Positions 6,025 through 62,144 of a stretch of DNA of 64,000 nucleotides are shown here, piece by piece. This DNA is from Squalus acanthias (Eukaryota), in assembly GCA_030390025.1 (NCBI GenBank), contig CM059431.1:133054001-133118000 (forward strand), written 5' to 3'. The first letter of the stretch is position 1, and every line of letters starts with the position of its first letter. The notes below the pieces were generated by a model. The model was not told the DNA's origin. It made no database searches and saw only the letters and a program-made list of their open reading frames with translations. A program made the position numbers and the translations under genes.

Positions 6025-9000
6025 AAAATGTGATTTAAAATCTGTAATGAACTATGGGTAAGACATCTAAAATTATGGTCTTGATATCACACTACTTAAC
6101 ATAGATGAAATTGTTCCAACAATGTGTAACAATGTTTTCACCTATGCCAAGAAGCTTGGGTCATAGACCTGGCTAGGTAAACACTGTTTTATCATGTACC
6201 TCTTGTTATAATGTAAGTTTTAGCAAATAATACATTATTTAAAAAATCTTTAAACTACATCCATTTTTGTATGTTACTTTTTCTCCTTTTTTAAAGAATA
6301 TATTTTTTAGTTAGGTAGCAAGTGTACGGAACTGATAGTAGCAGGATCGAGGTAAGGTAATGTAGGGCACACAACATCACATGATATAAGCTCTGGCAAT
6401 ATCAGGTTTCTTTTGGCCGCATTTTAACAGTTTATAAATGATGTAGTAGCTCTTTATCCCCTACGACCGTAGGCAACATTACAGGACTGACAAGTATAGC
6501 TGTCATTTACTACTATTACAAGACAATGGGTTCCTCCAAGAGTTTCTTGAAATACATATTTAACTCCTTATTGTTAAATTCACATTTGCCTCACTAGCAT
6601 GAAGAGGTTAGTAATGCTACCTAATACAGCTCCAACTCAGAAAAACATTATTCTATCCTGCTTAAAGAATTTTATTATTTCTAAGGGAGATATAAAAGAA
6701 AAACTATGAAGTATGGAAATGTGAAAAAACAAAACATCTGGATATACAAAGATAGGGTAACTTTCTGATGAAGGATCATATCGGAAACATTTCTTTCTCT
6801 TTTCAGATCCTGATCAACCAGCTCTGCATTTTTTAGTTTTATTATTACTAATGTCATTTATGTATATTTAAGTTGGATAAGATAATTTTCTGAGATATTA
6901 CCTAATTCACATCATTAATAACCATCTCTTAGCCTGGAACTTGAAGTCTAGTTCAAACAGTCTGTTTTATCAAATAAAGTGTATTAATGAAAAATCTGTC
7001 AAAATGACTTAACTTGTCTCACAGCTAAAGAAAGCAATTGGACACTATAGCCTAGAAACTACAGTTTGCAATATTAGTGGACAAATAGTCCTTTGTCTGC
7101 TATTGTAGTGGAAGCGGTAACCCATTTAAAATAAACAGGTTAGCACCTGCATTAAGATAGTGGATAGAAGAATGGCATATGAGCACGTTAAGCATTTATA
7201 TACTAATATTGCAAATAATTATTTCTTGCCATATAGAATTTTGTTATTCACAATTGATTAGTTTTACAATAGAACCAGTGAAAATAAAATAGGTTGTCTC
7301 CAAAAATGTCTTCATTTTTACAACTCCTTTTGATGTCATTAATATTAATTATATTAAAGGGTTAACCATTGCTTACATTGACTAGGAGCATGTGTAATGT
7401 TAACACAAAATAATACTTCTTTCCATTAAAACTAAACTACAAATTGGACACCTTGCAATGTTAGTCTTTAATTCCTTTTTACACATTGTATTATTCTATT
7501 CACAACAGGCTGATAAAGGATTACAATGAAAATTCAAGCCTGACATATGGTCACTTGATGTTTATCAATTTTAGCTAAAGTGAGTGTAACATTTCTATTG
7601 GGGATCACTTCAGTCCGATCGTTGTAGACAGCAGTTTGTCTAATCAGATTGCAAATTAAGTTTGATCACATTCCAGCTTAATCCACTCTCAGTGCCCCAT
7701 TTACACCACTAAATCAAACACTGGGAAACTGCAGGTGCTGCTTTGCAGTCATTACACCCAAGGGGCAAAGGCTTTGTAATAAATAGCAAATAAATTGAAG
7801 TGCTGGGAAAGAAATCATCTGACTTGCAAGCTACAGGGCATTTCTAATTATCCTACAGTTTAGCTGGAATTCGTCATTGCCTCGACTCAGCAGAGTATTT
7901 TTTTAACAGCTGCTGAATGAGGCTGATGCTTTGCTTGTTTGAATTAATTGAGGTACTGAGAAACGCTTGTTGTACTGGTGCACTGCCTCCTCCTCTCAAT
8001 CCCCCCCCGCATAACCCACCGGCAGCCTGTTGCAAAAGTATCAGATGTACATAGCACTTGATGTTTCAGCTGTTTTCCTAAGCATTCTCCAGAGGAAATC
8101 ACAAATAACTGTCAACATCATGGCTCATTTATTTCAATTATAGTTAAGAGAGCTTCAAGAGCTGACAGCACAGCCAAGACTATGTTATGAATACTCATAT
8201 ACTAGGGTGCCTATGTGGGCACAAAGCATGATTTTCTATTAGTCTATATTTGGTGCCGTTTTATATTGTTGATTCTTTTTTCTTTCTATGTAACATTAAA
8301 TGACATCAATATCAAGGGATATATTTTATGCAAGTATATTGGTTCTGAAATATGGTTACATTTTCAAAATATAACGTGCAACAACATTTCAGTAATTGAA
8401 TTGAACTGCAAAATAGAATTTCTCCATCCAAAAAATGTCATAGTAAATGCTTTTTATGGATAGGGTAATGGTGCCATATCCTGTCAAGTAGCACCAATAT
8501 CGCTTCTCATAAGCTGCTTCTATATTGCTCTAGTGCCCTGCTGGTGTCATTGGCTTCTAACAAACAGGTCTCACACAACCACTAGCATCACCAAAATAAA
8601 CATGCCAAATTCATTAACTCTAGCGGCCAGGAAGACTAGTGTTTTTTATTGGGCGTACTCGCCACTGACCTTAGTGAATTTGACAAGTTTACTTTGGTGT
8701 TGCTGTTGGCTGCTTGAGACTTGTGTGATGGGAGCCAATAACTTTAGCATGACAGGGGGGTCCTCACCCCTAGCACCAACCCGCTTGCCTTCCCATCCCA
8801 GAGTGTACCATTTCCGGAGTTGCTGGGGATGGGAACACTGTGCTGACGAGACAGTCTACACCCTTGGTGTCGACCTATTTTCTTCTTCCACTAGACTGAG
8901 CTGCTGGCCATTCTCTACTTTGCCAGTTTTTTATGCTTCCCATTCTACTTATGATCCTGTTTAGTTCTTGTCACACTTGCAGCATCTCATGCTGGTCGAT

Positions 9001-9395: not shown

Positions 9396-9399
9396 TTGT

Positions 9400-9605
9400 A
9401 TTTTTCTCCCCTTCACCTTTCCCTTGTTCTGTTCCTTTTTAAGTGCTGTTCATCTGTAATATCTTTCAGTTCTGAGGGAAGGTTTATACCTGAAACATCA
9501 ACTGACTTGTTTTCTCTTGACAGATGCTGCCTGACCTGCTGAATGTCTTCAGTGTTTTCTGTTTTTGTTTCAGATTTTCAGCATCTGCAGTATTTTGCTT
9601 TATGT
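9400..9605 (+). mobile_element. Penelope-like element terminal repeat fragment
   Basis: CCTGAAACATCAAC..CAGATGCTGCCTGACCTGCTGA..TTTCAGATTTTCAGCATCTGCAG, shared with 45335-45716 and 34080-34525. Hammerhead core is mutated (CTGAGGG). Confidence 0.7.
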
Positions 9606-12739: not shown

Positions 12740-12845
12740 GATTCTCTCACTGCTATCCTACCTGAGGAAGGAGCGACCGCTCCGAAAGCTTGTAAAATTA
12801 AATAAATCTGTTGGACTATAACCTGGTGTTGTGCGACTTCTCACT
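12740..12845 (+). mobile_element. Penelope-like terminal repeat, second family
   Basis: CTGAGGAAGGAGCGACCGCTCCGAAAGCTT followed by CTGTTGGACTATAACCTGGTGTTGTGCGAC, which recurs at 61641-61786. Confidence 0.7.
12759..12794 (+). ncRNA. Minimal type-I hammerhead ribozyme motif (putative)
   Basis: UAC-CUGAGGA-A-GGAGC(GACC)GCUCC-GAAA-GC-UU-GUA: core boxes, 5-bp helix II, palindromic AAGCUU helix III, 3-bp helix I. Confidence 0.6.
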
Positions 12846-13650: not shown

Positions 13651-14585
13651 TTGGCAGCAGTCACTCTTTTTGTTTAATTCGAGAATATTTTTAAGTCCCA
13701 GAATTTAGCTATATGAACAGCATCAGTGCAAATTGTGATAATTTCTCAAATGATTATTTTAATGCTGTGACTTCATCCAAAGCTTTACATAGTCCAGATG
13801 AGCTGCTACCTCGCCTTTATTTTGTGTTTTTTTTTAAAAGAAAGCTAATTAACATAATGCAGAAAGTACAATAATAAAGCCCCACTTTAGGTCCTTGCTA
13901 TCTTTTGTTTCCTATTATTGTACCAAATGATTTAATTGGGTCTCTCTAATTGTGTGCAGACACAGAACAACCCATAACCTATTGTGAGAAGACCTACAAC
14001 CTAATGTAGTATCAAATTCAGTTCCCATCTAAAGTGCTTGGTTCTAAAAAGCCATTACAGTGGCTGCGAATAATGAAAATCTGCTTTGAGCAAAGTGGTG
14101 GTCGTAGGGACATTATGTTCTGCAATAAAAGCCCTGTTCTGGTGGAACAATGGAAGCGTGGTGAGGCAGTGGCTGTATATGGATAGTAGATAAATCAAAA
14201 TGAATAAGAGAGAGCCGCAGAAGGAAAAATAGACTGAAACCCACTAGTTACAAAGTAAATACTTCAAACGTTGAAGCATTTCTGAGCAATTGACACCTCA
14301 TTCATGCCAAAAAACATTAACTTCATGGGCACAGGCACAATGTCGCTGTGGATGGGATTGAAGGATTAGTTGAAGAGATCACAGCATCAGCTTCAAATAT
14401 ATTCGCTGCTAAACAGGAACATGCTGAACAAATGCTTTACTGCTCGTGATAAACATGTTTCGCTTTTAACTTAAAATGACTATACTTTGGAAATAGCATT
14501 AGCTCCTAGATCCCCATATGAAAATGCAGACAAAAAGCCTCTGAAATCCACTGTCTTACCTAAATAACGTGCTTATATAATAGAA

Positions 14586-14679
14586 ACTAAAACAGAAAAT
14601 GCTGGAAACACTCAGCAGGTCAGGCAGCATCTGTGGAGAGAGAAACAGAGTTAACGTTTCAGCTCGATGACCTTTCATG
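14586..14679 (-). mobile_element. Penelope-like terminal repeat fragment
   Basis: AAAACAGAAAATGCTGGAAACACTCAGCAGGTCAGGCAGCATCTGTGGAGAGAGAAACAGAGTTAACGTTTCAG, near-identical to 34082-34155. Confidence 0.8.
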
Positions 14680-16976: not shown

Positions 16977-19900
16977 CGGTAGCATAGTGGTAATGTCACT
17001 GGGCTAGTAATCCAGAGGCCTGGATTAATGATCCCACCACGGCAGCTGTTAATTAAATAAATCTGGAATAAAAAGCTAGTATCAGTAGTGGTAACCATGA
17101 AACTATCGGATTGTCATAAAAACCCATCTGGTTCACTGATGTCCTTTAGGAAAGGAAATCTGCCGTCCTTACCCGGTCTGGCCTATATATGACTCCAGAC
17201 CCACAGCAATGTGGTTGACTCTTAACTGCCCTCTGAAATGGCCTAGCAAGCCACTCCGCTAACAAACTGCTACGAAACAAAATAATAAGAACCCGGCATC
17301 GACCTCGGCACCGGCAACGGCACACCCAGCCCAGTCGACCCTGCAAAGTCCTCCTCACCAACATCTGGGGACTTGTGCCAAAATTGGGAGAGCTGTCCCA
17401 CAGACTAGTCAAACAATAGCCTGACATAGTCATACTCACAGAATCATACCTTTCAGCCAATATCCCCAACTCCTCCATCATCATCCCTGGGTATGTCCTG
17501 TCCCACCAGCAGCACAGACTCACCAGGGGTGGCGGCATAGTGGTACACAGTTGGGAAGAGTGGCCCTGGGAGTCCTCAACATTGACTCCTGGACCCCATG
17601 AAGTCTCATGACTCCTGGTCAAACATGGGCAAGGAAACCTCCTGCTGATTACCACCACTGCCCTCCCTCAGCTGTTGAATCAGTACTCCTGTATGTTGAA
17701 CACCACTTGGAAGAAGCACTGAGAGTAGCAAGGGCACAGAATGTACTCTGGGTGGGGGACTTCAATGTCCATCACCAAGAGTGGCTCAGTAGCACCACTA
17801 CTGACCGAGCTGGCCAAGTCCTCAAGGACATAGCTGCCAATCTGGGCCTGCGACAGGTGGTGAGAGGACCTCATACTCACCAATCTACCTGTCACAGATG
17901 CATCTGTCCATGACAACATTGGTAGCAGTGACCACTGCACAGTCATTATGCAGACGAAGTCCTGTCTTCACACTGAGGACACCCTCCATCGTGTTGTGTG
18001 GCACTACCACCGTGCTAAATGGGATAGATTCAGAACAGATCTAGCAGCTCAAAACTGGGCATCCATGAGGTGCTGTGGGCCATCAGCAGCAGCAGAATTG
18101 TATTCCACTACAATCTGTAAACTCATGGCCCGGCATATACCTCACTCTACCATTGCCATCAAACTAGGGGATCAACCCTGGTTCAATAAGGAGTGTAGAA
18201 GAGCATGCCAGGAGCAGCACCAGGCGTACCTAAAAATGAGGTGCCAACCTGGGGAAGCTGCATCACAGGACTACATGCATGCTAAAAAGCAGAAGCAGCA
18301 TGCTATAGACAGGGCTAAGCGATCCCACCAACAACAGATCAGATCAAAGCCCTGCTGTCCTGCCACATCCAGTCGTGAATGGTGGTGGACCATTAAACAA
18401 CTAATGGGAGGAGGAGGTTCCATGAATATCCCCATCCTCAATGATGGTGAAGCCCAGCACGTGATTGCAAAAGACAAGGCTGAAACGTTTGCAACCATCT
18501 TCAGCCAGAAGTGCCGAGTGGATGATCCATATCGGCCTACTCCTGAGGTCCCCACCATCACTGAAGCCAGTTTTCAGCTAATTCGATTCACTCCACGTGA
18601 TATCAAGAAACGGCTGGGCACACTGGATACAGCAAAGGCTATGGGCCCCGACAATATCCTGGTTATTGTGCTGAAGACTTGTGCTCAGAACTAGCCGCGC
18701 CTCTAGCCAAGCTGTTCCAGTACAGCTACAACACAGGCATCTATCCGACAATGTGGAAAACTGCCCAGGTATCTCCTGTCCACAAAAAGCAGGACAAATC
18801 AATCCGGCCAATTACCGCCCCATCAGTCTACTATCAATTATCAGCAAAGTGATGGAAGGTGTCATTGACAGTGCTATCAAGCGGCACTTACTCACCAATA
18901 ACCTGCTCACTGATGCCCAGTTTGGGTTCCGCCAAGACCACTTGGCTCCCGACCTCATTGCAGCCTTGGTCTAAACATGGACAACGGAACTGAATTCAAG
19001 AGGTGAGGTGAGAGTGACTGTCCTTGACATCAAGGCAGCATTTGGCCGAGTGTGGCATCAAGGAGCCCTAGTAAAACTGAAGTCAATGGGAATCGGGGGG
19101 GAAATTCTCCACTGGCTGGAGTCATACCTAGCACAAAGGAAGATGGTTGTGGTGGTTGAAGGTCAATCATCACAGCCCCAGGACATCGCTGCAGGAGTTC
19201 CTCAGGGCAGTGTCCTAGGCCCAACCATCTTCAGCTGCTTCATCAATGACCTTCCCTCCAACATAAGGTCAGAAATGGAGATGTTTGCTGATGACTGCAC
19301 AGTGTTCAGTGCCATTCACAACTCCTCAGATAATGAAGCAGTCCATGCCCGGATGCAACAAGACCTGGATGACGTTCAGGCTTGGGCTGATAGGTGGCAG
19401 GTAACATTCGCGCCACAGAAGTGCCAGGCAATGACTATCTCCAACAAGTGAGAGTCTAACCACCGCCCCTTGACATTCAACGGCATTACCATCGCCGAAT
19501 CCCCCCATCAACATCCTAGGGGATCACCATTGACCAGAAACTTAACTGGACCAGCCACATAAATACTGTGGCAACAAGAGCAGGTCAGCGACTCACCTCC
19601 TGACTCCCCAAAGCCTTTCCACCATCTACAAGGCACAAGGAAGGAGTGTGATGGAATACTCTCCACTTGCCTGGATGAGTGCAACTCCAACAACACAAGA
19701 AGCTCGACACCATCCAGGACAAAGCAGCCGGCTTGATTGGCACCCCATCCACCACCTTAAACATTCACTCCCTCCACCACCGGCGTACCGTGGCTGCAGT
19801 GTGTACCATCTACAAGATGCACTGCAGCAACTCGTCAAGGCTTCTTCGGCAGCACCTCCCAAACCCGCGACCTCTACCACCTAGAAGGACAAGGGCAGCA

Positions 19901-21385: not shown

Positions 21386-22520
21386 ATGGGTGCCATTTAT
21401 ACTGTCTCACCTTGGTCCTCAGAATCGTGATGAGCCCCAACACCAGCAGCACCAACAACAACACCAGCAGCAACAACAACACCACCAACCTTCTCCTCAA
21501 GCACCTGATGCTGCACAGGACAGATGGCATCAGCGCAGGACTGTACCACGCCGGAGGCGATACGCCCAACACAGGGTATACAGGCAGAGGATGAGCTTCC
21601 TCAACATGACTGAGCAGCAGTGCCACAGGAGGCTCAGTCTATCACGCCAGGTCATCGCAGACACTTGCACATTGCTGGAGCAAGACCTGCAACCCAGAGG
21701 AGCGGGTGGACATGCCTTACCAGTGGCTGTCAAAGTCACCAGCGCCCTCAACTTCTTTGCCTCAGGCTCCTTCCAGGGATCTGCAGCAGACATTTGCGGC
21801 ATCTCGCAGTCGGCTGCCCACAGATGCATCACCCAGGTCACTGATGCTCTCTTTGACAAGTCGGCCAATTATATCAACTTTGCCACTGATGAAGCCAGTG
21901 TTACTGAGCGGATGCTCAGCTTTGCCGCTCTGGCTGGCTTCCCACGGGTGCAGGGCATCATCAACTGCACACATGTGGCCATCAGGGCACCCCCATCATC
22001 ACCCAGGAGTCTTTGTGAACCGTAAGGGCTTCCACTCCCTCAAAGTGCAGCTAGTCTGCAACCATCGGAAGATCATCATGCATGTGTGCACAAAATTCCC
22101 TGGCAGCTGCCATGACTCTTTCGTCCTGCGCCAGTCCAGCCTCCCTCAGCTCTTCGCTCCTCCAAACAGACTTTCCGGCTGGCTGCTTGGAGACAAGAGC
22201 TATCCCACTGAAGACGTGACTCATCACACTCTTGAGGAGACCCAAGTACTGAGGCCCAGGAGAGATATAATGAAAGCCACATTTCCACCAGATGTGTCAT
22301 AGAGCAGACAATAAGTATGCTGAAAATGCGCTTCAGATACCTTGACAGATCTGGAGGAGCCCTTCAGTATGCACCAGCCAGGGTCTCCAGAATCATCATG
22401 GTCTGCTGCGCCCTGCACAACATAGCGCAGCAGCGAGGATTAGCGCTGCATCCGAGCACATTGCTGCCCAGGAGGCCAGGGATGTCCTCATCATGGTCAG
22501 ATTTACTTAACTTTACGCAT
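21386..22520 (+). pseudogene. Harbinger (HARBI1-like) DDE transposase, frameshifted
   Basis: [26 protein letters not shown] (first catalytic D appears as N), [52 protein letters not shown] across three frames. Confidence 0.9.
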
Positions 22521-28582: not shown

Positions 28583-31500
28583 AGCCGGAATTTTGCCGGC
28601 ACTCAGAGGGCAGGTTTGGAGGCAGGTCCGCTGTCAAAATCTAAAAGATTGACAGCGGGTTGGGATCCCGCTCTGAACCCGCCTCCGTGTCAGTTTCCCA
28701 AATGTTGGGTCTGTCTGCGCTTTAAAGGGACCATGTCCACATTCATTTTGCGGTGGGTCAGCCAATTGAGATAGTTAAGAGGGTTTTTAAAGGTAGTTAA
28801 ACAGCATTTTACCACCATTTTTCCAACTTTTCCATGAGGTTCCCGTCACTCGGGGATCACGTCAGGTAAGTGTGTCGGGTTCTCAATGACTCTCCATTGC
28901 TGTGACTAGGCGACAGCTGCAAAAGTGGTATAAAAGCTACCATTTCATAGCTGTTCACTTTCCAATGTTAGAAGATTGAGCCTTCAGGATTTGGAAGACA
29001 CTTTGAGCTGTATGCAGTTTGGAAGTGTATGGAGTAAACTCTATCGATTGTCACTTCCTTGGAGCAAGCTCTCTCACCATTGACAGATTGCTTCTGTCAT
29101 CTCAACTTCAGCTGCCATCTATTCCATCAGCATCGGTACCCTTGAAAAAATCTCATCTTGGTCCTCAGAATCCCACCACGATCAGCCCCAACACCAACAT
29201 CACCAGGCACACCAACATCACCAACAACAATATCAACCTTCTCCGCAATCACCTGATGCTGCACAGGACACAGGGCATCAGCACTCGACTATATTGCTGC
29301 CCGGGACGCCAGCGATGGCCTCGCCATAGACAGATTTACCTCACTTGATGCTGAACACCCTGGCTGCCACATGATGCGCCAGGTTGGCACCAACCCACAC
29401 CAGCACCATAAAGCATCCCTACAATGTCCAAGCCATTCCTTTCACACTCATCACCATTGGGGGGGGGGTACCGTTATGTCTCACCATTCACTGAAACTCA
29501 CTAAGACACTTCTAAAGGTGCACACAAATCTGTCCAAGAAGGCAAAGTGTTGAAAATAAAGGTTTCAATGTTTGACAACACATTAACAGAAACTTTACAT
29601 GAACATTGCATAAAACACCCAAGTGCCTACCCTTGTGTGTTGTTAGTTGGTATGATTGGACAAGGATGAGGGTGAGTGTGAGGAGTGGCTAGTGAGATGG
29701 GGAAGTGATAATGTAGATAGAGAGGGATGGTTGGAGGTGCAAGGTAAGTTGGTGTGAGTAAGGATGTGCAGGAGTAGGGTAGGGAAGGCAGAGTGATGGG
29801 GATGTGATGAGTGGCACAGCAGGATGAGGCTGAGTGTGACTTTGTAGTCATGTTTTGTGAGCTACTGAGATCATTGAAAGGTTTGCGCCACTGCAGCCTG
29901 GTCCTCCTGACCACATCCCTGCTTGTATCCTCCTGTGCAATGTGCAACCAGGCTGCATTGGTGTCCCGGGGAGGTGTCTTCCACCCATTGGAAGGGAAGA
30001 GAACCTCCCTGTGTGCTGTGACTCCCTCCATAAGCACATGGAGCGAGTCATGGGAGAGCCTGGTTACAGCTGTGCTTTGCTCGTCAGTGTTTGCAGCACC
30101 TCAAAGCTGCAGAACACTGACAGCACAACTGTCAAAATGAATGTGGACATGGTCCCTTTAAGTAAACTGGCTGACGGCGCGTCATCAAATGACGTCATCA
30201 GACCCGCTTCCTTGTAATTGGCCGGGAACCTCGCAGGGCGGGCTTAACAAGCCCTATTAACATAAAATCATGTCGGAGGCTGGGATCCAGACAGCTGTTG
30301 GGTCGGCACCTGTCACGGACGTCACCCACCACCCGCCATGGACATCGCCAACCACCTGCCATGGACATTGCCCACCACCCGCCACGGACATCGCCCACCA
30401 CAGACATCACTCACCATCCGCCACAGACATCGCCCACCACCCGCCACGGACATCGCCAACCACAGACATCACTCACCATCCGCCACGGACATCGCCCACC
30501 ACCCACCACGGACATCACCCACCACCCGCCATGGACATCGCCAACCACCCACCACGGATATCACCCACCACCCGCCATGGACATCACCCACCACAGACAT
30601 CACCCACCACCCGCCACGGACATCACCAACCACCCGCCACAGACATCGCCCACCACCCGCCACGGACATCGCCCACCACAGACATCACTCACCATCCGCC
30701 ACGGACATCGCCCACCACCCACCACGGACGTCACCCACCACCCGCCATGGACATCGCCAACCACCCACCACGGATATCACCCACCACCCGCCATGGACAT
30801 CACCCACCACAGACATCACCCACCACCCGCCACGGACATCACCCACCACCCGCCATGGACATCACCCACCACAGACATCACCCACCACCCGCCACGGACA
30901 TCACCCACCACCCGCCAAGGACATCACCCACCACAGACATCACCCACCACCCGCCACAGACATCACCCACCACCCGCCACGGACATCACCCACCACAGAC
31001 ATCGCCCACCACCCGCCACGGACATCACCCACCACCCGCCACGGACATCACCCACCACAGACATCGCCCACCACCCGCCACGGACATCACCCACCACAGA
31101 CATCGCCCACCACCCGCCACGGACATCACCCACCACCCGCCATGGACATCACCCACCACAGACATCACCCACCACCCGCCACGGACATCACCAACCACCC
31201 ACCACAGACATCGCCCACCACCCGCCATGGACATCACCCACCACAGACATCACCCACCACCCGCCACGGACATCACCCACCACCCGCCACGGACATCACC
31301 CACCACCCGCCACGGACATCACCCACCACCCGCCATGGACATCACCCACCACAGACATCGCCCACCACCCGCCACGGACATCACCCACCACCCGCCACGG
31401 ACATCACCCACCACCCACATCACCCACCACCCACCACGGACATCACCCACCACCCGCCATGGACATCACCCACCACAGACATCACCCACCACCCGCCATG

Positions 31501-33996: not shown

Positions 33997-34079
33997 ATTA
34001 CTTGATGTTCCGGTTAATTTGCTTGTGAAGAATAGGTGTTAGTAAAAGGTGCTCCTGACCACAAGCAAAGTATAATGAG

Positions 34080-34525
34080 ATAAAAACAGAAAATGCTGGA
34101 AACACTCAGCAGGTCAGGCAGCATCTGTGGAGAGAGAAACAGAGTTAACGTTTCAGGTCTGTGACCTTTCGTCAGAACTGGAAAAAGTTAGAGATGTAAC
34201 CGGTTTTAAGCAAGTACAGCGGCAGGGAATGGGGGAGGGGAGGAAAGAACAACAGGGAAGGTCTGTGATAGGGTGGAAGGCAGGAGAGATTAAAAGACAA
34301 AAAGGATGATGGTGCAAGGTGAAAGGAGATGGTAATGGGAGAAGTAAAGAAACAAAAGATGTTTCTAGAGGAGGTGGAAATGGGAATGGTAGAATCATCA
34401 GCAACAGCTGGCGTCCGAAACAAAATTGGGGGCCGAGGTTATGGTCTGAAATTGTTGAACTCAATGTTGAATCCGGAAGGCTGTAAAGTGCCTAATAGAA
34501 AGATGAGGTGCTGTTCCTCGAGCTT
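34080..34525 (-). mobile_element. Penelope-like retroelement 3' fragment (GIY-YIG C-terminus plus terminal repeat)
   Basis: Minus strand encodes KLEEQHLIFLLGTLQPSGFNIEFNNFRP*, typical of a PLE endonuclease C-terminus, followed by the shared terminal repeat. Confidence 0.85.
34143..34179 (-). ncRNA. Minimal type-I hammerhead ribozyme motif (putative)
   Basis: AGUU-CUGACGA-A-AGGUC(ACA)GACCU-GAAA-CG-UU-AACU: intact core, 5-bp helix II, palindromic AACGUU helix III, 4-bp helix I. Confidence 0.7.
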
Positions 34526-34529
34526 ACAA

Positions 34530-34704
34530 TTTCACCAATTTTGACTGCAGTAGTAGCGCAAAACGGGTAACAGCAAATCGGCTGCCTGTTTTACACACTG
34601 CCCCATTTTCTTTTCTGTTGACTTCAATGTAAAAAGAAAATCATATAGGGGGTAAAAGGAGCTGCCAACCTGCTATTGCCCATTCTGGAGACGAATTTCA
34701 CCCC
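34530..34704. mobile_element. Small palindromic MITE remnant
   Basis: Self-complementary interior and AATTTCACCCC end; related to 36853-36995 and ~20325-20430. Confidence 0.5.
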
Positions 34705-35034
34705 TTTAGTAAAAAAAGACGAAGATTTAAGAAACCAGTAGGAAATCTCATTTTAGTCGACACAAAAAGAAAAGTTGCTAATGCTGAAAACCTGAAATGA
34801 AAACAAAAAGTACAAGAAATATACTGCAGGTCAGTCATCTGAAACAGGTAAATGTTTCAGGTGTGACTGGCCCGTTAAAATGGAATGTATCGCCTGAAAT
34901 AACAATCTATTTTTTTGTTTCAGATGTTCATTCACCTGACATTCTTTTAAATTTCAGAAATCTTTTCTTTGATATTGGCACAGTGCCTTTATTTATTGCC
35001 ACAATTGTATGTGAATGACTATTACCCGCACATA

Positions 35035-39530: not shown

Positions 39531-40709
39531 TGTTTAAAATGTATACAATGTGCTTCTTCAATATGGGTTTCTTTGGGAGTCATACAAAAATCATGTCAAT
39601 ATAATCATGTTGGGGGGGGGGGGTTCCTAAGGGAGCCAAAAACAATGCATTTTATATCAGATTAAGAAATATTATAGTGTTATAGAAAGGCGATGCAGTA
39701 CTGTTTAATTTTCTTCAACAGAATCAAATTTATGAAGTTTTATCCAAAGCTGTCAGTGATTTGTATCTTGTTAGAAACCCCTTAAGCATTTTATTAAATT
39801 ATTTTTCTCCCTTTGGTTTACAAGCTAATGAATTAAATCTCCCCTTATTCTCTAAAGGGTCAGTTTGTTGTATTCGGATATGCTTAGCCATTAGCATCAA
39901 TGAAAGCATCAGATGTGTGATCCCAACTTCTCCTCCCCAGGTCAGCTACATCCTTTAATTTCCCTGAAGGCTTCAGCTGTGATGAATTGAACTACAATCA
40001 CTGCCTGGTTTGTTTGAACCCTTTGTAGGCAATAATGAAACTAATGCATATGAAAAGGAAAGAAAAACTAGTATGTTTTGACCATGCTGTGCAGCTTTTG
40101 CTCAATGATTTGTGAGGGAAGACAACAGAACAACAGAGGCCATATTTACCCTTAATTTGTGTCTCAGTTTCAGCTCATGCTACAGTAATGGTTGAGTCTG
40201 GAAACTGTCAGGTAGGTATTGACTGCCTACTAGTCATCTGAAGAGCCAAGCTGTTCAATACTGGCCCCTATCCATTAACTGACAGTGTGGAAAAAATATT
40301 TGAGAAATTTTAAATGAAGAGGAAAATATTCTAAGTATATGTAAATAGTATAATCCCCCTTTTTTCTGTGCCTTGGATTATAGTGGGATCCTTTTAATAT
40401 TAATTTACATTCAGAGCTATAATACTTGAAAGTATGAAATCAATTCAGTTTGACCACTCTTCATTAAACTGTTATTCACTGTAATTTCCTGGTGAACAAC
40501 TGCAGATTACTTCTTAATAATACTGTAATAATCATCTCACAGTCATTAACTGACATGTTTGTACATCATTAGCCAACGATGATGTGGAGTGCATGACAGT
40601 TGGTATCTGCAGCTGCTCCCAGTAAACTGTCCAAAAACAAAGTAGAAAATCGACATTAAAATTGAAACAATCTAATTTACAAATGATAAACCAATACCAG
40701 GAATGATTT

Positions 40710-40825
40710 AAAAACAGAAAATGCTGGAAACCACGCAACAGGTCAGGCAGCATCTGTGGAGAGAGCCTGGCCAGCATTTTCTGTTTTTATTTCAGATTTC
40801 CAGCCTCTGCAGTATTTTGCTTTTG
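40710..40825. mobile_element. Inverted pair of Penelope-like terminal fragments
   Basis: AAAAACAGAAAATGCTGG ... CCAGCATTTTCTGTTTTT inverted arrangement, then the usual 3' tail. Confidence 0.7.
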
Positions 40826-41412: not shown

Positions 41413-43220
41413 CATGGGAGACAGCAGGCACCAAAGTTTTTGGACACTGCACTGGAGGTCATGGTTGAAGAGATGGAACAGAGCAGAGATGTCCTGTATC
41501 TTCAGGGGGGCAGGAGGCCCGCCAGGCATTTGCTCAGAAGGCAGTGGTAAGAGATAGCCGCGGAGGTCAATGCCAGGAGTATAACTCCAAGAACATGGAT
41601 ACAGTGCAGGAAGACATTTAATGATCTCACACAAGTGGTCAAGGTCAGTGACTGCATCTTCAAATGCCATATCCTACCAACTGCATCACTAGCCTCACAC
41701 ACTGCTGAATGCACCACACCCCCATCACTCACCCACCAACAATCTCGATCAATCAGGACTCATACATCACATTCATATGCTTCACCTCACCCTCACACAC
41801 TTAGCACTGTTGCAAGCCTCAAATCCACATTTCACAGCTTGCACACACTGCCAGCTATTCAACCATGACAGCCACATCACCCACACAGATTGCACGACAT
41901 TCACTGACACACTTCCCTCTCTCTTGCAGGAGAAGGTGGTGCACAACCGAAGGCAGCAGGAACTAACTGGAGGGGGAGAGGTAGGCTTACATGTTCTAAC
42001 CACCTTGGAGGAGACGGCGCTAGCCATTATGGGAAGGGCCATTGCTGTGGCCGTGGCCGTGGCCATTGAAGATGAGGATATTTGCATACCTAATGCTCCT
42101 TCTCTCATCCCACTTCTCCCTCATCACACAATCTCTTCTGACTTACAAGCTGCTGATGGTGTAAGCATGCACTTCTTACTTTCTCCTCTCCCCTCACCAC
42201 AACCGTACACTTGTCTCTTTTTCCTTTCACATACCCAAGAACTGCAACCTGCCCAGGCAGTAGAGGAAGAGCAGGAAGACAGTGAAGATGAAGTCACACT
42301 GTCACTCGATTTCACAGTCATAGCCATCAGCTCAGAATCTGACACTGCACATAATTTAGAGGATAGCATAGAGGTGGAATCTGCACGTGGTGAAACACCA
42401 GGCACAAGTGCGCTGCAGCCAGGGTACGGGGGAAAAGATAGTGCCGGTGCCAGCTCGCTGGAGGGTGAGGTCGCACACTAGTTCTGCTGCAGAGGACTCA
42501 GATGAGCACTTCGATGGGGCAGGCTACAAAAGGCGGCTGCTGGGTGTGCACACCCAAATGCTTGGTGCACTGGCAGGCCTGCCAGAAAGCCTGCGCTCAA
42601 TGTCAAGGAGCATGGAGGAGTCCGACACTAACTTGGCACAGGTCTTTGCGCAGAGCTTGGAGCAAATGCTTTCCAATATGGAATGGGTGGCTACCTCCAT
42701 CAGCACACCTGTGGAGCCAACCATGATGCAGTGTCTGATGGCCGATGTCACAGCTTCCTTTGTAGCACAAGCAGCAGCCACCCAAAGTCTGAGTGCTGCA
42801 GTGGAAGCTCAGACTGCTGCCATCATGGCTCTGAATGCCAATGTTCAAAGGGGCTTGCAGGGTATCACAGCAGTCCAGCAATCTGTCGTCCAACAGATTA
42901 CTAGGATTGCTGAGGCACCACCCCGGGGGAGTGGCAGTGGCTCCATGGAGTACAAACTTGCTGTTTTCTCTCTGGATGACAGCATTCCTGCTCCCACCAC
43001 TGCCTGTCAGCCAGCCAGCCCAGATTGCTGCAGCCTAGGCCGAGATGGTGCAGTCTGCAGCCGGGTCTTCTAGGCCCAGAGCTGCTCGAGGTCGCCCTCC
43101 AAGGCCATCTGCAGTTTCCTCCACTGAAAGTCAGCAGCCTTTCACCAGCCATGCTGCAGCCACTGGGGTAGCACCTCGTAGGAGCACTAGGACAGGCAAA
43201 GACTCACGGAAGAGGCACTA
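41413..43220 (+). pseudogene. Harbinger Myb/SANT-like gene, decayed, intron-containing
   Basis: IAAEVNARSITPRTWIQCRKTFNDL followed by AAG|GTCAGT donor; TTGCAG|GAGAAG acceptor (EKVVHNRRQQELTGGG); acidic and coiled-coil-like 3' exon. Confidence 0.78.
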
Positions 43221-43429: not shown

Positions 43430-44010
43430 ATTAATTATTTGCTCATGTACAGCCCAAGCAGAAAGGGGCTGTCTAGGTTGCAGCCTCCCTTCCTCTTCCA
43501 CCTCCTCCTCCTCCTCTTCCACCTCCTCCTCCTCCTCTGCATCTTCCTCCTCGTGCTGCTCCTCAGCTTCTCACCTGATAGATGATGGCAAGGGCTGTTT
43601 CTCAATGATGGCAAGGTTATGCAGCATGCAGCATACCATGACAAATCTTAAGACCTGCTCAGCCGAGTACCGCAGGGCTCCTGCAGAGCAGTTCAGGGAG
43701 CAGAATCGTTGCTTCAGCATGCCAATGGGCTGCTCTGTCAGATTTCTTGTGGCAGCATAGCTCTTGTTGTATGCCTACTGGGCACGTGTGCGTGGGTTGC
43801 GGACCAGGGTCATGAGCCATGTCGTCAGCGGATAACCCTTGTCGCCCAGTAGCCACACTTTGCTTTGCCATGGTAATTGAAATACAGCTGGCACAGAGGA
43901 CTGCCGCAGAATGAATGCATCGTGATTGCTGCAAGGATGCCAGGCATTCACTTGGAAGATGCGCTGCCTGTGGTCACACACCATCTGTAGTTGATGGAGT
44001 GGAATCCTGT
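43430..44010 (-). pseudogene. Harbinger transposase C-terminal half
   Basis: VCDHRQRIFQVNAWHPCSNHDAFILRQS, WLLGDKGYPL, CCMLHN, poly-Glu tract. N-terminal half absent. Confidence 0.85.
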
Positions 44011-44769
44011 GTAAACTCGTAGAATTGCAGCATCAACCAGAAGAAATAAACCAGCAACTAACATGCAAGTAGTTGATGAACCCTTTAAACAGTGCTGGTG
44101 GAGGGGTCCTTCATGCCGTTTAACGTTGTGTTCAGCTGTGCGAGGTTAAGAGAGGGGATAGGCTGCAGCGTGGTACTCCAAAATGGCAGCGCTGGTGTCA
44201 AATCAGCATTGCACGCTGATTGACATCATAATCTGTCTGCTCTCCAGAAAACGGGTGCTACCGATTCCAATTTTGCCCCCATTAACTGGTTGTTGATCAT
44301 TTGTTGTTTGTGGGCCCTGCAGTTCATTATTGCCATTATTGCAGCAAAATAACAGATTATAATTCAAAAGTAATTCAATTGCTGAGAAGTGCTTTGGGAT
44401 GTCTTTAGGATGTAACGGACACTATTTAAGTGCAAATTCTTTCTTTTCTTTCTCTATGTATTCATTACAAAAGTGTTTGACTTCAAGGGTATTTGCCTTT
44501 TCCTAGCTGTGTATTCAGTTACTAATGGTATTCCCCAGCCCCTCCCCAGTGTTCTCTTCTCCTGAAGGCAGTAACTCAGATGGGAAATGGTTCCATGGGC
44601 ACAACACAGTCCTCCAGTACCTCAAATAGTGGGTAGTCTTCAAACGTGAGATGGTGAGTGTCAGCATTGAGCACGATCAGCTTGTGGCAACTTGCCTTAG
44701 TTGGTAGCACCCTTGTCTCTGAGCTAGAACCTGTCATTTAAAGCCCCATTCCAAGACTTGAACACAAAG

Positions 44770-45260
44770 GTGGAGGAGGGGTCCAGGCCCGGGGGGTCCG
44801 ATCCCCCGGGGTGGGGGGGGGGGGGGGGGGGGATTCACACCCGGGGGGGGGTTCCGATCGGAGTTGTGATCTCCGGGGGCGGGACCCAATTCCTGACCCC
44901 GGGGCGAATCGCGATCCTGGGGTGGGGGAGAGGGGGTGTTCCAGGCCCGGGGTGGGGGGGGGACGACATCCGATCCCGGGGAGTGCGGGCTGATGGTAGG
45001 GGAGCTTGGGGGGGCCGGGAGGAAGCATTCCTGCTCTTCCCGGCCCACAAGGATTGCTCCCCGAGGCTGAGGCCGCCTCGTTGCAGCCACTGGGAATCCC
45101 GAGTGCCGGGATTCCCGCCCGTCTGCAGTAAAACCTGCAAAGCAGGTTAAAGTAGAGACTTCAGGTCTCATTATAATATTTAAATTACCAAACATCCTCT
45201 TTGCAGCAGGTTGGCAATTTAAATATTATAATAAGGCCTGAAGCCTCTACTTTCCTGGTT
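44770..45260. mobile_element. GC-rich MITE fragment with central inverted repeat
   Basis: G-run/GATC interior as in family B. CATTCCTGCTC(T/C)TCC(C/T)GGCCCACAA block shared with ~51926-51950. 43-bp inverted repeat at 45149-45253. Confidence 0.5.
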
Positions 45261-45334: not shown

Positions 45335-45716
45335 ACACTGTTCCAATGAAACTCAACGTAAGCTCGAGGGACAGCACCTCATCTTTCGATTAGGCACTTT
45401 ACAGCCTTCTGGACTCAACATCGAGTTCAACAATTTCAGACTATAACCTCCGTCCCTATTTTTTCAGGCGGCAGCTGTTGATGATTCTGCCATCCCCATT
45501 TACAACATTTAACCTCTCCTGCCTTCCACCCTATCACAGACCCTCCCTTTTGTTCTTTCCTCCCCTCCCCCCTTTCCCAGCCTCTGCACCTGCTTAAAAT
45601 CTGTTACATCTCTAACTTTTTCCAGTACTGATGAAGGGTCACAGACCTGAAACGTTAACCCTGTTTCTCTCTCCTCGATGCTGCCTGACCTGCTGAGTGT
45701 TTCCAGCATTTTCTGT
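45335..45716 (+). mobile_element. Penelope-like retroelement 3' fragment
   Basis: HCSNETQRKLEGQHLIFRLGTLQPSGLNIEFNNFRL* followed by the terminal repeat; same family as 34080-34525. Confidence 0.85.
45624..45660 (+). ncRNA. Minimal hammerhead ribozyme motif (helix I weakened)
   Basis: CUGAUGA-A-GGGUC(ACA)GACCU-GAAACGUU. Confidence 0.55.
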
Positions 45717-46726
45717 TGTTTTGACAGACAAAATAAAATGGTTTGTGTTTTTCCCCTTTTTTGGTTCTCTTCCTAAACATCTTAATGATATTTTTTAAAA
45801 AGTCAATAAAAAGTAATATGTAATTCCTACAAATCCTCCCCGCCCTCCCCCTCCTCAACAGCATGGTTGCATGTTTGTGCAAAGCTACTCACTCCAGTCG
45901 ATCGTTCAAAATCAAATATTGAGAAATTTCAATTTTAAAACATTTTAAGCATTTCAGAACCTCTTTAAAAGCATTTGGACTTCAAGACCTGGTTGAAACT
46001 TGTTTAGATGAGGGGAAAATTGATTTTTGTTTCTGTTTCTTCCAAAATCATGTTCGAAACTTAGGGGGGGAAAACGTGTTTTCAACACTAATTTTTTGTG
46101 AAAAGTTCATTAAAAATCTTTGAATTCTTCCAAGTCTCGTTGCAGCTTTGACAGAAGAAGTTGCTCCAAGTTTCTCTTTCCCTCTTCAACGCTCTCGGTA
46201 AACATACAACGAAAAATAATTAAATAAACTCTAATTCCAAACGGAGCTCAAATAAGAAAGTGAATAAAGTGGTTAAACTCCCTAAGAAGGTGAGGTTATC
46301 GATCCCCAGCCTTGGCGATGAGTTGGGATCAGTTTTGGAGAAGTTGTTTCCTCTTTTTCTGCTGCCGTACCTCCGTCTCTCACAGGCTCTGAGGGACAAA
46401 CAGGGGTACAAACTTTTCCCCCTCTCTCATAACATGATTTAAATAACCCTGATAGACTCTTTCAATAAGGGGACAAGCCCTGGCAAAATTTAATTGGAAC
46501 TTACCGCGACATTCAACATCACTTTCCTGTATTTTTTTCTGGCTTTAAACAATTTTCTGAATTAAAAAAAAAATTCTCATTTTTGTTTCACTGTGGGCTT
46601 AAAAATTGTTTGCTTTAGCCTCCTTCCAGTGGCCATTGTACATGTGCTGCGCCTCCACCTGTGTTGTTCCAAAGTGCGGCCGCCACTCAGTCACCGGGAA
46701 TGGACTACACGTGTCTGGACCATCAC

Positions 46727-48337
46727 CACTCTCCCTCTCTCTCCCTCCGTCTCTTTCTCCCTCCGTCCCCTCTCCCTCTCTCCCTCCATCCCCCTCTCCC
46801 GCTCTCCCTCCGTCCACCTCTCCAGCTCTCCCTCCATCCCCCTCTCCCTCTCTCCCTCTGTCCACCTCTCTCCCTCCGTCCCCCTCTCTCCCTCCGTCCC
46901 CCTCTCTCCCTCCGTCCCCCTCTCTCTCGCTCTCTCTCCATCCCCCTATCTCTCCCCCAGTCTCTCTCTCTCTCCCCCCCGTCTCTCTCTCTCTCTCCCC
47001 CGTCTCTCTCTCTCTCTCCCCCCAGTCTCTCTCTCTCTCTCCCCCCAGTCTCTCTCTCTCCCCCCCAGTCTCTCTCTCTCCCTCATCTCTCTCTCTCCCC
47101 CAGTCTCTCTCTCTCTCTCCCCCGTCTCTCTCTCTCTCTCCCCGTCTCTCTCTCTCTCCCCCAGTCTCTCTCTCTCTCTCTCCCCCAGTCTCTCTCTCTC
47201 TCTCCCCCAGTCTCTCTCTCTCCCAGTCTCTCTCTCTCTCTTCCAGTCTCTCTCTCTCTCTCCCCCCCAGTCTCTCTCTCTCTCTCCCCCCCAGTCTCTC
47301 TCTCTCTCTCCCCCCCAGTCTCTCTCTCTCTCTCCCCCCCCAGTCTCTCTCTCTCTCTCCCCCCCAGTCTCTCTCTCTCTCTCCCCCCCAGTCTCTCTCT
47401 CTCTCTCCCCCCAGTCTCTCTCTCTCTCTCCCCCCCAGTCTCTCTCTCTCTCTCCCCCCCAGTCTCTCTCTCTCTCTCCCCCCCAGTCTCTCTCTCTCTC
47501 TCCCCCCCAGTCTCTCTCTCTCTCTCCCCCAGTCTCTCTCTCTCTCTCCCCCAGTCTCTCTCTCTCTCTCTCCCCCAGTCTCTCTCTCTCTCTCTCCCCC
47601 AGTCTCTCTCTCTCTCTCTCCCCCAGTCTCTCTCTCTCTCTCCCCCAAGTCTCTCTCTCTCTCTCTCCCCCAGTCTCTCTCTCTCTCTCCCCCAGTCTCT
47701 CTCTCTCTCTCCCCCAGTCTCTCTCTCTCTCTCCCCCCCCCCCCCCCCCGGTCTCTCTCTCTCCCCCCCCCCCCCCCCCCCCGTCTCTCTCTCTCTCTCC
47801 CCCCCCCCCCCCGTCCTCTCTCTCTCTCTCCCCCCCCCCCCCCAGTCCTCTCTCTCTCTCTCCCCCCCCCCGGTCTCCTCTCTCTCTCTCCCCCCCCCCC
47901 CCCCCGGTCTCTCTCTCTCTCTCCCCCCCCAGTCTCTCTCTCTCTCTCCCCCCCCCCCCCGGTCTCTCTCTCTCTCTCCCCCCCCCCCCCGGTCTCTCTC
48001 TCTCTCTCTCCCCCCCCCCCCGGTCTCTCTCTCTCTCTCCCCCCCCAGTCTCTCTCTCTCTCTCCCCCCCCCCCCCCCGGTCTCTCTCTCTCTCTCCCCC
48101 CCCGGTCTCTCTCTCTCTCCCCCCCCCCCCCCCCCCCCCGGTCTCTCTCTCTCTCTCCCCCCCCCCCCCGGTCTCTCTCTCTCTCTCCCCCCCGGTCTCT
48201 CTCTCTCTCTCTCTCTCTCCCCTGGTCTCTCTCTCTCTCTCTCTCCCCTGGTCTCTCTCTCTCTCTCTCTCCCCTGGTCTCTCTCTCTCTCTCTCTCTCT
48301 CTCTCCCCTGGTCTCTCTCTCTCTCTCTCTCTCCCCT

Positions 48338-56364: not shown

Positions 56365-57154
56365 GGCACGGATTTTGCTCTCAGCGGCGAAGGAACGGCT
56401 TTCACCGTTTACCTTGCCTACAGTTGCCCACAGACTGTTCGCGGGCTTGTCAGTGGAGATTTCGACTAATCCGGCGTCAGTTTCAATGTGGCGCCGTCTA
56501 CAGGGGATTTGTGGTGTCTGTGAGCAGGACAAGCAGTAGTGAGGCTCTCCAATCAGATTGAAGTATTCTCACTGAGACACGCAGACTACAAACCAGGAAG
56601 TAAGAAACAGGAAATAGAAATTACATTTAAATCATTACATAGGAAGCAAAATAAAGATTGGAACATACAGATGGGATTATGGGAGAGAGCTGAAAGAGAA
56701 AAACAGAAAAATAAAAAAACAACTTTTTAAATTTTAATTTAAAAAAAAATCTGCAGCATTAATTTTCTTCTGAAGGAATGAGACTTCATTCCCTCAGAAG
56801 AAAATTAATTTTTCAGGACCACAAGGTGGTTTAGCAGTAATTATCACTTACTATGCTGTTAAAAACTCTCATTACTCCTGAATGCACTAACCCTAACTCT
56901 TTCATCCATCTTTAGTGCGGGACTAGTGGGTAATTACCCCAAGTTCACGCCATTACAGTGATTTCAGTGCCAAGTCTATCGGTGAGGACTGCAGCAGTGC
57001 ACTCTGTGGAGGAGCAGGGTATCTGTGACAGCAACCTCTGGATTTCTGCGTTTAACTGCGCATGTGCGGACACCAGAAGTTGCTGTCAGATTTACCCTGT
57101 AATAACGGTGAGTGCTGATAGCCTCACCGTTATTATTACAGCAAAATCTGGGCT
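56365..57154. mobile_element. Harbinger-type MITE, family C
   Basis: AAT|GGCACGGATTTTGCT ... AGCAAAATCTGGGCT|ATT. Confidence 0.75.
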
Positions 57155-58397: not shown

Positions 58398-58589
58398 TGT
58401 AAACCTGTGTCCATATAACCTGGTCCCGCTTCCTTCCCTCTCTAACAATGATTGATTTGAATTCCAATTATTTATCATTAGAAAGGCAAGGGTATCCTAT
58501 TCCATGTCTCATGCAGCCAAATATGATCTTGCTTTACTCAACCCCAATTGATCCTTTCCCATGTGCTTCTGATTTTCCATTCTTCCCAG

Positions 58590-61494: not shown

Positions 61495-61640
61495 ACCAGA
61501 GCATGAATAATATAACCTTGGACACTAGTACTCCACGATTCTGCAACAGAAAACATTGCAAAATTTCTCCGCTGCTGTTTTTTCCCTGTTTTCTTTCCCC
61601 AAACAATTTTTCCAGTGGAGCCAATGTCTGGTGAAACACT

Positions 61641-61786
61641 TGAGAGGTCGCACAACACCAGGTTATAGTCCAACAGTTTTATTTGAATTCAAATTTGATT
61701 TCAAATAAAACTGTTGGACTATAACCTGGTGTTGTGCGACCTCTCAATTTTGTCCACCCCAGTCCAACACCGGCATCTCCACATCA
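61641..61786 (+). mobile_element. Short Penelope-like insertion with inverted 5' segment and 12-bp TSD
   Basis: Perfect 47-bp inverted repeat (61641-61687 / 61700-61746); TGGTGAAACACT duplicated at 61629-61640 and 61787-61798. Confidence 0.8.
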
Positions 61787-62144
61787 TGGTGAAACACTAC
61801 CAGGGGTGTCCAAATGGTGTCAAGTGACACCAATCTTCTACCCCTATGTAGTTCACAGTTTCTACACTTAACCTGTAATCCCACTGATCTCAGCTCTTTA
61901 GCCAACTAGTTTTGCAGAAACTTTGACTCTGATAATTATTGGAGCCAGGCTGAGAGCGGGAGTGGGAGGGATGGGGGAAGAGGTGGATTTTCGGATGGGA
62001 AACGCGGAAGTAAGGGAGTCTCGCAATTCCTGACTTTAACATTTTTTCATCAGGTTTCCTGCCCAATAGCCAGCCAGATTTACAGGCTGTCCTTTGGTCA
62101 GGCTAGAAAGCAGCCGGGGAGCAGATGTCATGTAAGTCTGACAT

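What the first reader, a model, noticed from the sequence alone, without database searches (positions are those of the whole stretch)
34143..34179. Intact minimal hammerhead ribozyme in a Penelope-like terminal repeat
Seen: the minus strand reads AGUU-CUGACGA-A-AGGUC/ACA/GACCU-GAAA-CGUU-AACU. This has both hammerhead core boxes, helix II, a closing helix I and a palindromic AACGUU where helix III should be, downstream of a GIY-YIG C-terminal remnant. Related cores occur at 45624-45660 (core intact, G-U in helix II) and decayed at ~6765, ~9471 and ~14650. Established: Penelope-like elements carry minimal hammerheads proposed to cleave as dimers through a palindromic helix III. Inference: this shark repeat scatters potentially self-cleaving RNA motifs through introns and intergenic DNA.
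Basis: partly seen in the sequence, partly recalled or inferred. Interest (0 to 1): 0.7.

Follow-up and report, generated by a model that had tools for sequence, protein, structure and literature searches.

The report
Penelope retroelement minimal hammerhead, solo copy
The motif is a real, intact copy of the small self-cutting RNA motif already described for Penelope-like jumping genes, left at the end of a truncated insertion, where it most likely does nothing because it needs a partner copy to cut.

Summary
Observation confirmed. 34143-34179 (-) fits the full minimal type I hammerhead descriptor: both core boxes, a 5-bp helix II, a 4-bp helix I, a loopless CG helix III and a GUU site. 0 of 300 shuffles gave such a hit. 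It lies 260 nt after the stop codon of a peptide matching the C-terminal end of Penelope-like GIY-YIG endonucleases, in a ~450-nt, 5'-truncated insertion of a very abundant family. This is the min-HHR described in 2014; 15 of 56 published examples share the CGUU junction. The focal copy has no tandem partner, folding buries its core, and no excess conservation of the core was shown. No host exon was found, so 'introns' is unverified. Best reading: the motif worked as a dimer- and probably protein-dependent ribozyme in the parent element's tandem RNA and is inert here. New member of a known kind; low interest.

The parts
34143..34179 (-). Intact minimal type I hammerhead motif (focal); predicted cut between 34147 and 34146
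   Evidence: fold
34080..34527 (-). 5'-truncated Penelope-like insertion: end of endonuclease ORF, 3' region, hammerhead, 3' end without the optional tail
   Evidence: (cover 34076-34543; loose ends at 34076-34082 and 34525-34527)
34439..34527 (-). Last codons and stop of the GIY-YIG endonuclease ORF (C-terminal remnant)
34125..34148 (-). Branch-point-like UUAAC (A at 34145) overlapping the cut site and helix I, pyrimidine tract, and CAG followed directly by AUG at 34124; splice-acceptor-like, function untested
   Evidence: criteria chosen after seeing the sequence
45358..45720 (+). Second copy of the same family with an internal deletion; motif 45624-45660 has intact core boxes but a broken helix I; the element probably extends ~35 nt further upstream
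14576..14676 (-). Copy truncated inside the first core box; keeps the GAAA box, palindrome, cut site and helix I 3' strand
9396..9601 (+). Older decayed copy (A9->G, palindrome lost) that carries the optional tail
40702..40824 (.). Inverted pair of 3'-end fragments of the same family, one with the tail; no hammerhead
34765..34875 (-). Old decayed copy ~0.6-0.7 kb upstream of the focal motif on the same strand; first core box and palindrome lost, so not a dimer partner
6765..6830 (+). Distant decayed relative: both core boxes present, helices I-III broken
12759..12794 (+).
61638..61749 (.). Back-to-back inverted pair of the second family's 3' ends (hairpin), no hammerhead

Best explanation
The motif is the minimal hammerhead of a Penelope-like retroelement (endonuclease-positive, probably Neptune-type), left in a ~450-nt 5'-truncated insertion. 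Shown: sequence, descriptor fit, position after the GIY-YIG stop codon, family abundance and Penelope-type ends. Inferred from published relatives: helix III cannot close within one motif because it has no loop. In the parent element's tandem transcript two copies pair their ACGU palindromes (4 bp), and each copy's core cuts the other after GUU, slowly and probably helped by the element's protein, trimming multi-unit RNA. Inferred for this locus: without a tandem partner, and with its core predicted to pair with its own cut site, the copy is an inert leftover that is intact because it has not yet decayed, not because the host keeps it.
For: Descriptor: 2 hits in the window, 0 of 300 shuffles with a hit. 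The peptide of the sister copy hit 43 proteins at E<=1e-3. Of 20 of these scanned, 3 have a sub-threshold Pfam GIY-YIG match just upstream of the matched stretch, and one shows a Cys-rich linker like that of Neptune/Nematis elements. The motif lies 260 nt after the stop. The optional tail is present in 3 pieces (9396, 40771, 34765) and absent in 4 (focal, 45358, 14576, 40702); inverted end pairs sit at 40702 and 61638. Both are described Penelope signatures. 106,284 of 39.3 M and 94,243 of 25.2 M contigs of two runs lay on the stretch. The palindrome duplex is only -1.7 kcal/mol; the helix I+II fold is -5.9 against -9.1 for a fold pairing core U4-G8 with the cut site; those pairs have p 0.65-0.99 alone and 0.53-0.63 in context. 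Published: solo min-HHR inactive and dimers weak; the anole motif cleaves only with protein and is dispensable for insertion in vitro. Focal vs sister copy: 4 of 37 differences in the motif, 26 of 325 outside, p=0.53.
Against: No cleavage assay. The RT domain and a full element are not in the window, so Penelope membership rests on 30-43 residues, sub-threshold Pfam matches in homologues (17 of 20 scanned had none) and end structure. Nearest-neighbour folding ignores Mg2+, tertiary contacts and proteins. Among the 40 of 173 variant rows shown, the only three in the motif keep the structure (two in loop II, one A-U to G.U), which hints at selection on the family, though not significantly (P=0.06 for core plus paired sites). 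The 10.1-11.1 pair is A-U rather than the usual G-C.
Confidence: 0.82

Rival explanations
1. The motif is a non-catalytic relic even in the parent family: a hammerhead-shaped signal (protein-binding or RT-positioning site) or a passenger that Penelope elements carry without needing it.
For: HHR mutants did not affect insertion in vitro and no reads ended at the cut site in anole RNA-seq. Naiad elements thrive without HHRs and the authors raise parasitism. A-U/G.U at 10.1-11.1, a U17 site and the predicted core-burying helix. Core conservation over flanks not significant (P(0 of 11)=0.38).
Against: Two unrelated families in the window keep all 11 invariant core bases with different, fully paired helices and different palindromes (CG vs GC). 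The family's major variants shown keep the fold. Core mutants abolished, and a compensatory double mutant partly restored, cleavage in the anole relative.
Confidence: 0.1
2. Dispersed copies do cut host RNA: this copy's core acts in cis or trans on another copy's cut-site half (for example the 14576-14676 piece, same strand, 19.5 kb away), helped by Penelope protein or host chaperones.
For: The focal motif is complete. The 14650 copy keeps palindrome, cut site and helix I 3' strand. The family is very abundant and present in contigs of runs only guessed to be RNA.
Against: Recognition would rest on 4+4 bp; the palindrome duplex is -1.7 kcal/mol. No host transcript across the locus was identified. 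Even adjacent dimers cleave poorly in vitro.
Confidence: 0.04
3. The motif overlaps the branch point of a spliceosomal intron in the terminal repeat, so that splicing (giving an mRNA exon that starts at the AUG at 34124) and self-cleavage exclude each other.
For: Only 4 of 3975 YAG sites in the window combine >=14 of 15 pyrimidines, no upstream AG and a branch-like motif; 3 of the 4 lie directly after this family's motif (34126, 14632, 6805). Penelope elements carry 5'-UTR introns, and in D. virilis the intron end maps to helix I. A donor-like GTAAG lies at 34527.
Against: The criteria were chosen after seeing the sequence, and the three sites are copies of one repeat. The donor-like hexamer is also an Arg-Lys codon pair and reads differently in the loose-end consensus of run X21. 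None of the 15 of 421 joints shown has matching splice ends. The reading frame after the AUG found no homologue (0 of 9 candidates). The sister copy at 45358 has lost the AG.
Confidence: 0.07
4. Chance match to a short motif.
For: Folding z-score of the 37-mer is only -1.61 (17 of 200 shuffles fold as well); no Rfam hammerhead hit.
Against: 0 of 300 shuffles gave a descriptor hit; it sits where Penelope HHRs sit; a second family shows the same core with different helices.
Confidence: 0.01

Closest known systems
Minimal hammerheads (min-HHR) in the pLTRs of metazoan Penelope-like elements (Cervera & De la Pena 2014, PMC4209133; main text parts 1-2 of 4 and supplement parts 1-2 of 3 read, figures as text only)
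   Same: CUGANGA plus one extra base, GAAA, no loop 3, palindromic 15.2-16.2, NUH site, short helix I, U-rich 5' flank; mostly found as solo motifs of truncated elements. 15 of the 56 rows of Fig. S3 have the same C-G-U-U junction (counted by eye).
   Different: A-U (G.U in many family members) instead of the usual G-C at 10.1-11.1, a departure also seen in several published rows; 5-bp helix II with a 3-nt loop; none of the 56 rows is a cartilaginous fish; an acceptor-like site lies downstream of the motif.
PAc, Poseidon element of Anolis carolinensis (Frangieh et al. 2024, PMC11167929; parts 1-2 of 4 read)
   Same: Vertebrate Penelope-like element with a pLTR hammerhead and an optional 30-40-nt tail.
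   Different: There the ORF starts in helix II; here the motif has no in-helix start and an AUG follows 22 nt after the cut. The homologues of this remnant suggest a Neptune-type linker. PAc cleavage was tested (protein-assisted); this one was not.
Non-LTR retrozymes (bioRxiv 10.64898/2026.07.22.740005; part 1 of 5 and passages read, supplements closed)
   Same: Type I hammerheads related to Penelope pLTRs; reported in the one chondrichthyan genome sampled.
   Different: Defined as tandem repeats with a hammerhead in each unit; this copy is solitary and keeps endonuclease coding sequence.

Membership tests
Metazoan PLE min-HHR | Core boxes CUGANGA and GAAA with one extra base before helix II | tested here: met
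   34175-34169, 34168, 34154-34151
Metazoan PLE min-HHR | Helix II and short helix I closing a type I fold | tested here: met
   5 bp and 4 bp Watson-Crick; helix II p 0.81-1.0, helix I p<=0.06 once flanks are included
Metazoan PLE min-HHR | No loop 3; palindromic 15.2-16.2; NUH cut site | tested here: met
   CG at 34150-34149, GUU at 34149-34147; GUU listed as an active NUH site
Metazoan PLE min-HHR | G10.1-C11.1 pair (typical, >80% consensus; not part of the descriptor, so not defining) | tested here: not met
   A-U here; A->G variant in 34-52% of depth in 4 of 4 runs; published rows with A-U or G.U exist
Metazoan PLE min-HHR | Located in the terminal repeat downstream of a PLE endonuclease | tested here: met
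   260 nt after the stop codon; homologues
Metazoan PLE min-HHR | Covariation, and core conserved above flanks within the family | tested here: inconclusive
   0 of 11 core sites vs 35 of 411 sites outside the motif among the 40 of 173 rows shown; P=0.38; core plus paired sites P=0.06
Metazoan PLE min-HHR | Cleavage as a dimer or with protein, not as a monomer | not testable with these tools
   needs an in vitro assay
Endonuclease-positive Penelope-like element | Single ORF with telomerase-like RT and C-terminal GIY-YIG | tested here: inconclusive
   only the last 30-43 residues are present; 3 of 20 scanned homologues have a sub-threshold GIY-YIG match upstream; no RT in this insertion
Endonuclease-positive Penelope-like element | 5' truncation, optional 30-40-nt tail, inverted end copies | tested here: met
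   loose ends at 34076-34082 in 4 of 4 runs
Endonuclease-positive Penelope-like element | Tandem or partial-tandem arrangement giving two pLTRs | tested here: inconclusive
   absent at this insertion, as expected for truncated copies; no genome held; reported for this genome in unchecked earlier notes
Neptune clade | Zn-finger-like linker between RT and endonuclease | tested here: inconclusive
   Cys-rich stretch seen in homologue P0031 only, not in the window
Non-LTR retrozyme | Tandem repeat with a hammerhead in each unit | tested here: not met
   single motif, no adjacent repeat unit
Canonical type I hammerhead (Rfam models) | 6-bp helix I, loop-loop tertiary contact, model match | tested here: not met
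   4-bp helix I; 0 of 22 Rfam matches at E<=5 is a hammerhead

The most novel reading that the evidence does not exclude
In this family the hammerhead's cut site sits on the branch point of an intron in the terminal repeat, whose acceptor abuts the ORF's start codon. Splicing and self-cleavage would then be alternative fates of one transcript (mRNA versus processed template), and the many dispersed sense-strand copies would act as ready-made splice acceptors in host genes.
Probability: 0.07. Interest if true: 0.6.

Novelty: new member of a known kind. Interest (0 to 1): 0.14.

Why it matters
As it most likely stands, it matters little. It adds a lineage not among the 56 published examples (cartilaginous fish, if the 'shark' label holds) to a motif class described in 2014, and hammerhead-bearing repeats were already reported for one chondrichthyan genome in a 2026 preprint. 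The role of Penelope hammerheads is an open question, and a high-copy family like this one would be good material for testing selection on the core, but a solo truncated copy does not itself make that question testable. It would matter more if the overlap with a splice-acceptor-like site proved functional.

Tried and rejected
No whole genome is held, so no genome-wide alignment of copies. Rfam: no hammerhead among 22 matches. Pfam on the two remnant peptides: 0 of 2. The word-indexed protein search gave 1 hit among 4 candidates, without a Pfam domain. Family copies in public collections: exact tail pattern 0 in viral, 0 in metagenome, 1 in prokaryote contigs, taken as chance and not examined; peptide patterns 0 confirmed of 98, 150 and 77 stretches. 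Host gene: 299 of 359 unmasked ORFs >=45 aa scanned; matches above the curated cut-off or at it were only Harbinger-type DDE and one RT fragment; 60 unmasked and 283 repeat-masked ORFs and all shorter exons were not scanned. Expression: no RNA holder listed; runs X1 and X5 are only guessed to be RNA and are contigs, so no statement on expression or cut ends. Depth is about 4- to 9-fold higher over the 3' end than over the first core box, in line with many copies truncated within or after the motif, but depth is not copy number, so it is not used as evidence. The frame after the downstream AUG found no homologue. The 34765-34875 remnant was considered as a tandem partner and rejected (core box and palindrome lost). 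Retrozyme and canonical-hammerhead readings rejected (membership rows). Lunse et al. 2016 (dimer cleavage) is not held; seen only as a title and through a review passage. Literature searches for a shark description: hammerhead+shark+Penelope, 4 papers, none describing it by listing, one checked by passages; Penelope+Neptune+shark+transposable elements+Chondrichthyes, 0 papers; 'branch point' occurred in 0 of 6 listed Penelope-hammerhead papers; one search gave 1 general review, listing only. Subscription papers, repeat databases, the preprint's supplements and part 3 of the 2014 supplement were not seen and may already hold this family.

Full report
Observation. The minus strand at 34179->34143 reads as reported. 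A descriptor for minimal type I hammerheads (CUGANGA, optional extra base, helix II >=4 bp, GAAA, paired 15.2/16.2, UH, helix I >=3 bp) gave 2 hits in the window: this one and 12759-12794 (+). None of 300 dinucleotide shuffles gave a full hit. Rfam returned 22 matches at E<=5, none a hammerhead, which fits a motif that lacks helix III. The 37-mer is not unusually stable (z -1.61), so the significance comes from the motif grammar, not from folding energy.

Other copies. BLAST and alignment place 8 pieces of the family in the window: the focal copy, 45358-45720 (+), 14576-14676 (-), 9396-9601 (+), an inverted pair at 40702-40824 (two pieces), a decayed remnant at 34765-34875 (-) and a distant relative at 6765 (+). 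Only 1 of these 8 passes the descriptor. The 45624 motif keeps both core boxes but has two mismatches in helix I, one next to the cut site; the 2014 study used disruption of that pair as its mutant control. The 14650 copy begins inside the first core box. The hit at 12759-12794 belongs to another family, with a GC palindrome, different helices and a 3' end shared with the hairpin at 61638-61749.

Context. The focal insertion spans about 34527-34080. It opens with the last codons of an ORF whose stop lies 260 nt before the motif. Pfam does not recognise the two short peptides. A 43-residue stretch of the sister copy hit 43 proteins at E<=1e-3. I scanned 20 of them: 3 have a GIY-YIG match below the curated cut-off directly upstream of the matched stretch, and the rest have none or unrelated domains fused to the piece. 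One homologue shows a Cys-rich linker of the kind described for Neptune and Nematis elements. The ends fit Penelope-like elements: a ~30-nt tail is present in 3 pieces and absent in 4, loose ends in 4 of 4 runs cluster at 34076-34082 and include tail-bearing ones, and inverted end pairs occur. These signatures are described in PMC8557442 (passages) and PMC11167929 (parts 1-2 of 4). The family is very abundant: 106,284 of 39.3 million and 94,243 of 25.2 million contigs of two runs lay on the 521-nt stretch; these are graph contigs, not copy numbers. No host exon was found (299 of 359 unmasked ORFs scanned), so whether the locus is intronic is open.

Conservation. One search showed 40 of 173 variant rows (38 places). 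Three fall in the motif: two in loop II, and A->G at 10.1, which turns A-U into G.U. None hits the 11 invariant core bases. Outside the motif 35 of 411 sites are listed, so an empty core has P=0.38 by chance, and no structure-breaking change in 31 core plus paired sites has P=0.06. The 133 hidden rows may include core changes at lower frequency. Between the focal and sister copies the motif differs at 4 of 37 sites and the rest at 26 of 325 (p=0.53). The test is inconclusive for the family and gives no sign of selection on individual copies.

How it most likely works. With no loop between 15.2 and 16.2, helix III cannot form within one motif; two motifs must pair their ACGU palindromes, so that one copy's core cuts the other after GUU (inference from the architecture and from PMC4209133). 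That duplex is weak (-1.7 kcal/mol). In the monomer the predicted ground state pairs core bases U4-G8 with the palindrome and cut site (-9.1 against -5.9 kcal/mol for helices I plus II; pair probabilities 0.65-0.99 alone and 0.53-0.63 with flanks). Published relatives behave accordingly: a solo Schistosoma motif did not cleave and dimers cleaved weakly; the anole motif cleaved only with the element's protein, and its loss did not affect insertion in vitro. That GUU is a slower site than GUC is recalled, not from a call; only lists it as active. So the motif probably served in tandem transcripts of the parent element and is inert at this solo locus. Catalysis is not shown here.

Rivals. A non-catalytic relic in the parent family (0.10), cutting of host RNA by dispersed copies (0.04) and chance (0.01) are weighed in the Rival explanations section. 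The boldest reading concerns a splice-acceptor-like site. A branch-like UUAAC overlaps the cut site, 21 nt before a pyrimidine tract that ends in CAG followed by AUG. Only 4 of 3975 YAG sites in the window meet such criteria, and 3 follow this family's motif. Against it: the criteria were post hoc, the three sites are copies of one repeat, the sister copy has lost the AG, the only strong donor-like site doubles as coding sequence and differs in one run's consensus, no matching joint is among the 15 of 421 shown, and the frame after the AUG found no homologue. I give it 0.07.

Comparison with what is known. It works like, and is a member of, the metazoan PLE min-HHR class of Cervera and De la Pena 2014 (main text parts 1-2 of 4, supplement parts 1-2 of 3). 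All descriptor features are met, and 15 of 56 published rows share the C-G-U-U junction (my count). The typical G10.1-C11.1 pair is absent, as in several published rows. None of the 56 rows is a cartilaginous fish, but a 2026 preprint (part 1 of 5 and passages; supplements closed) reports hammerhead-bearing retrozymes in the one chondrichthyan genome it sampled. My searches found no paper describing this family; subscription journals and repeat databases were not searched, and Lunse et al. 2016 was seen only as a title and through a review passage. PMC6155905 and PMC3138052 were seen as passages. Earlier unchecked notes of this scan describe the same kind of motif repeatedly, including tandem and fold-back insertions in this genome; they are leads, not support.

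Verdict. Observation confirmed with corrections; interpretation partly supported; new member of a known kind; interest 0.14.

Noticed in passing
window 12759-12843 (+): Second intact minimal hammerhead of a different family (GC palindrome, G-C at 10.1-11.1), apparently 5'-truncated shortly upstream; no endonuclease remnant seen beside it.
   Followed up: partly
window 61638-61749: Near-perfect hairpin made of two inverted 3' ends of the second family; it produces the top Rfam microRNA-type matches, all below gathering score.
   Followed up: partly
window 34125-34148 (-), 14632 (-), 6805 (+): Strong splice-acceptor-like site directly after the motif; 3 of the 4 such sites in the window by post hoc criteria. 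A weaker acceptor-like AG sits at the 5' strand of helix I (34179), where the D. virilis intron is reported to end.
   Followed up: partly
window 21610-22299 (+), 43574-44032 (-), 41551-41865 (+): Harbinger-type DDE transposase fragments and a weak Myb/SANT-like match. Earlier notes report Harbinger insertions at Penelope hammerhead cut sites elsewhere in this genome; junctions not checked here.
   Followed up: no
window 3842-4087 (-): Reverse transcriptase fragment (Pfam RVT_1 at its cut-off), probably a LINE remnant.
   Followed up: no
window 45150-45252 and 56756-56811: Two further inverted-repeat hairpins with sub-threshold microRNA-type Rfam matches; the first lies ~100 nt upstream of the sister copy.
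   Followed up: no
window ~30219-31100, ~46700-48300, ~62130-63530: Three large tandem or low-complexity arrays (about 23-nt units, CT-rich, and about 24-nt G-rich units).
   Followed up: no
window ~17060-19424 and ~52117-54463: A ~2.4-kb repeat present twice at about 90% identity, with a partial inverted third copy near 57800-58400.
   Followed up: no
protein P0011: A database 7-transmembrane receptor whose predicted C-terminus is this endonuclease end, suggesting the repeat is taken into gene models or transcripts as a false or alternative last exon.
   Followed up: no
joint 34126/34159: A recurrent opposite-strand joint (15, 14, 0 and 1 contigs in the four runs), suggesting a shared inverted-end variant of the family.
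   Followed up: no
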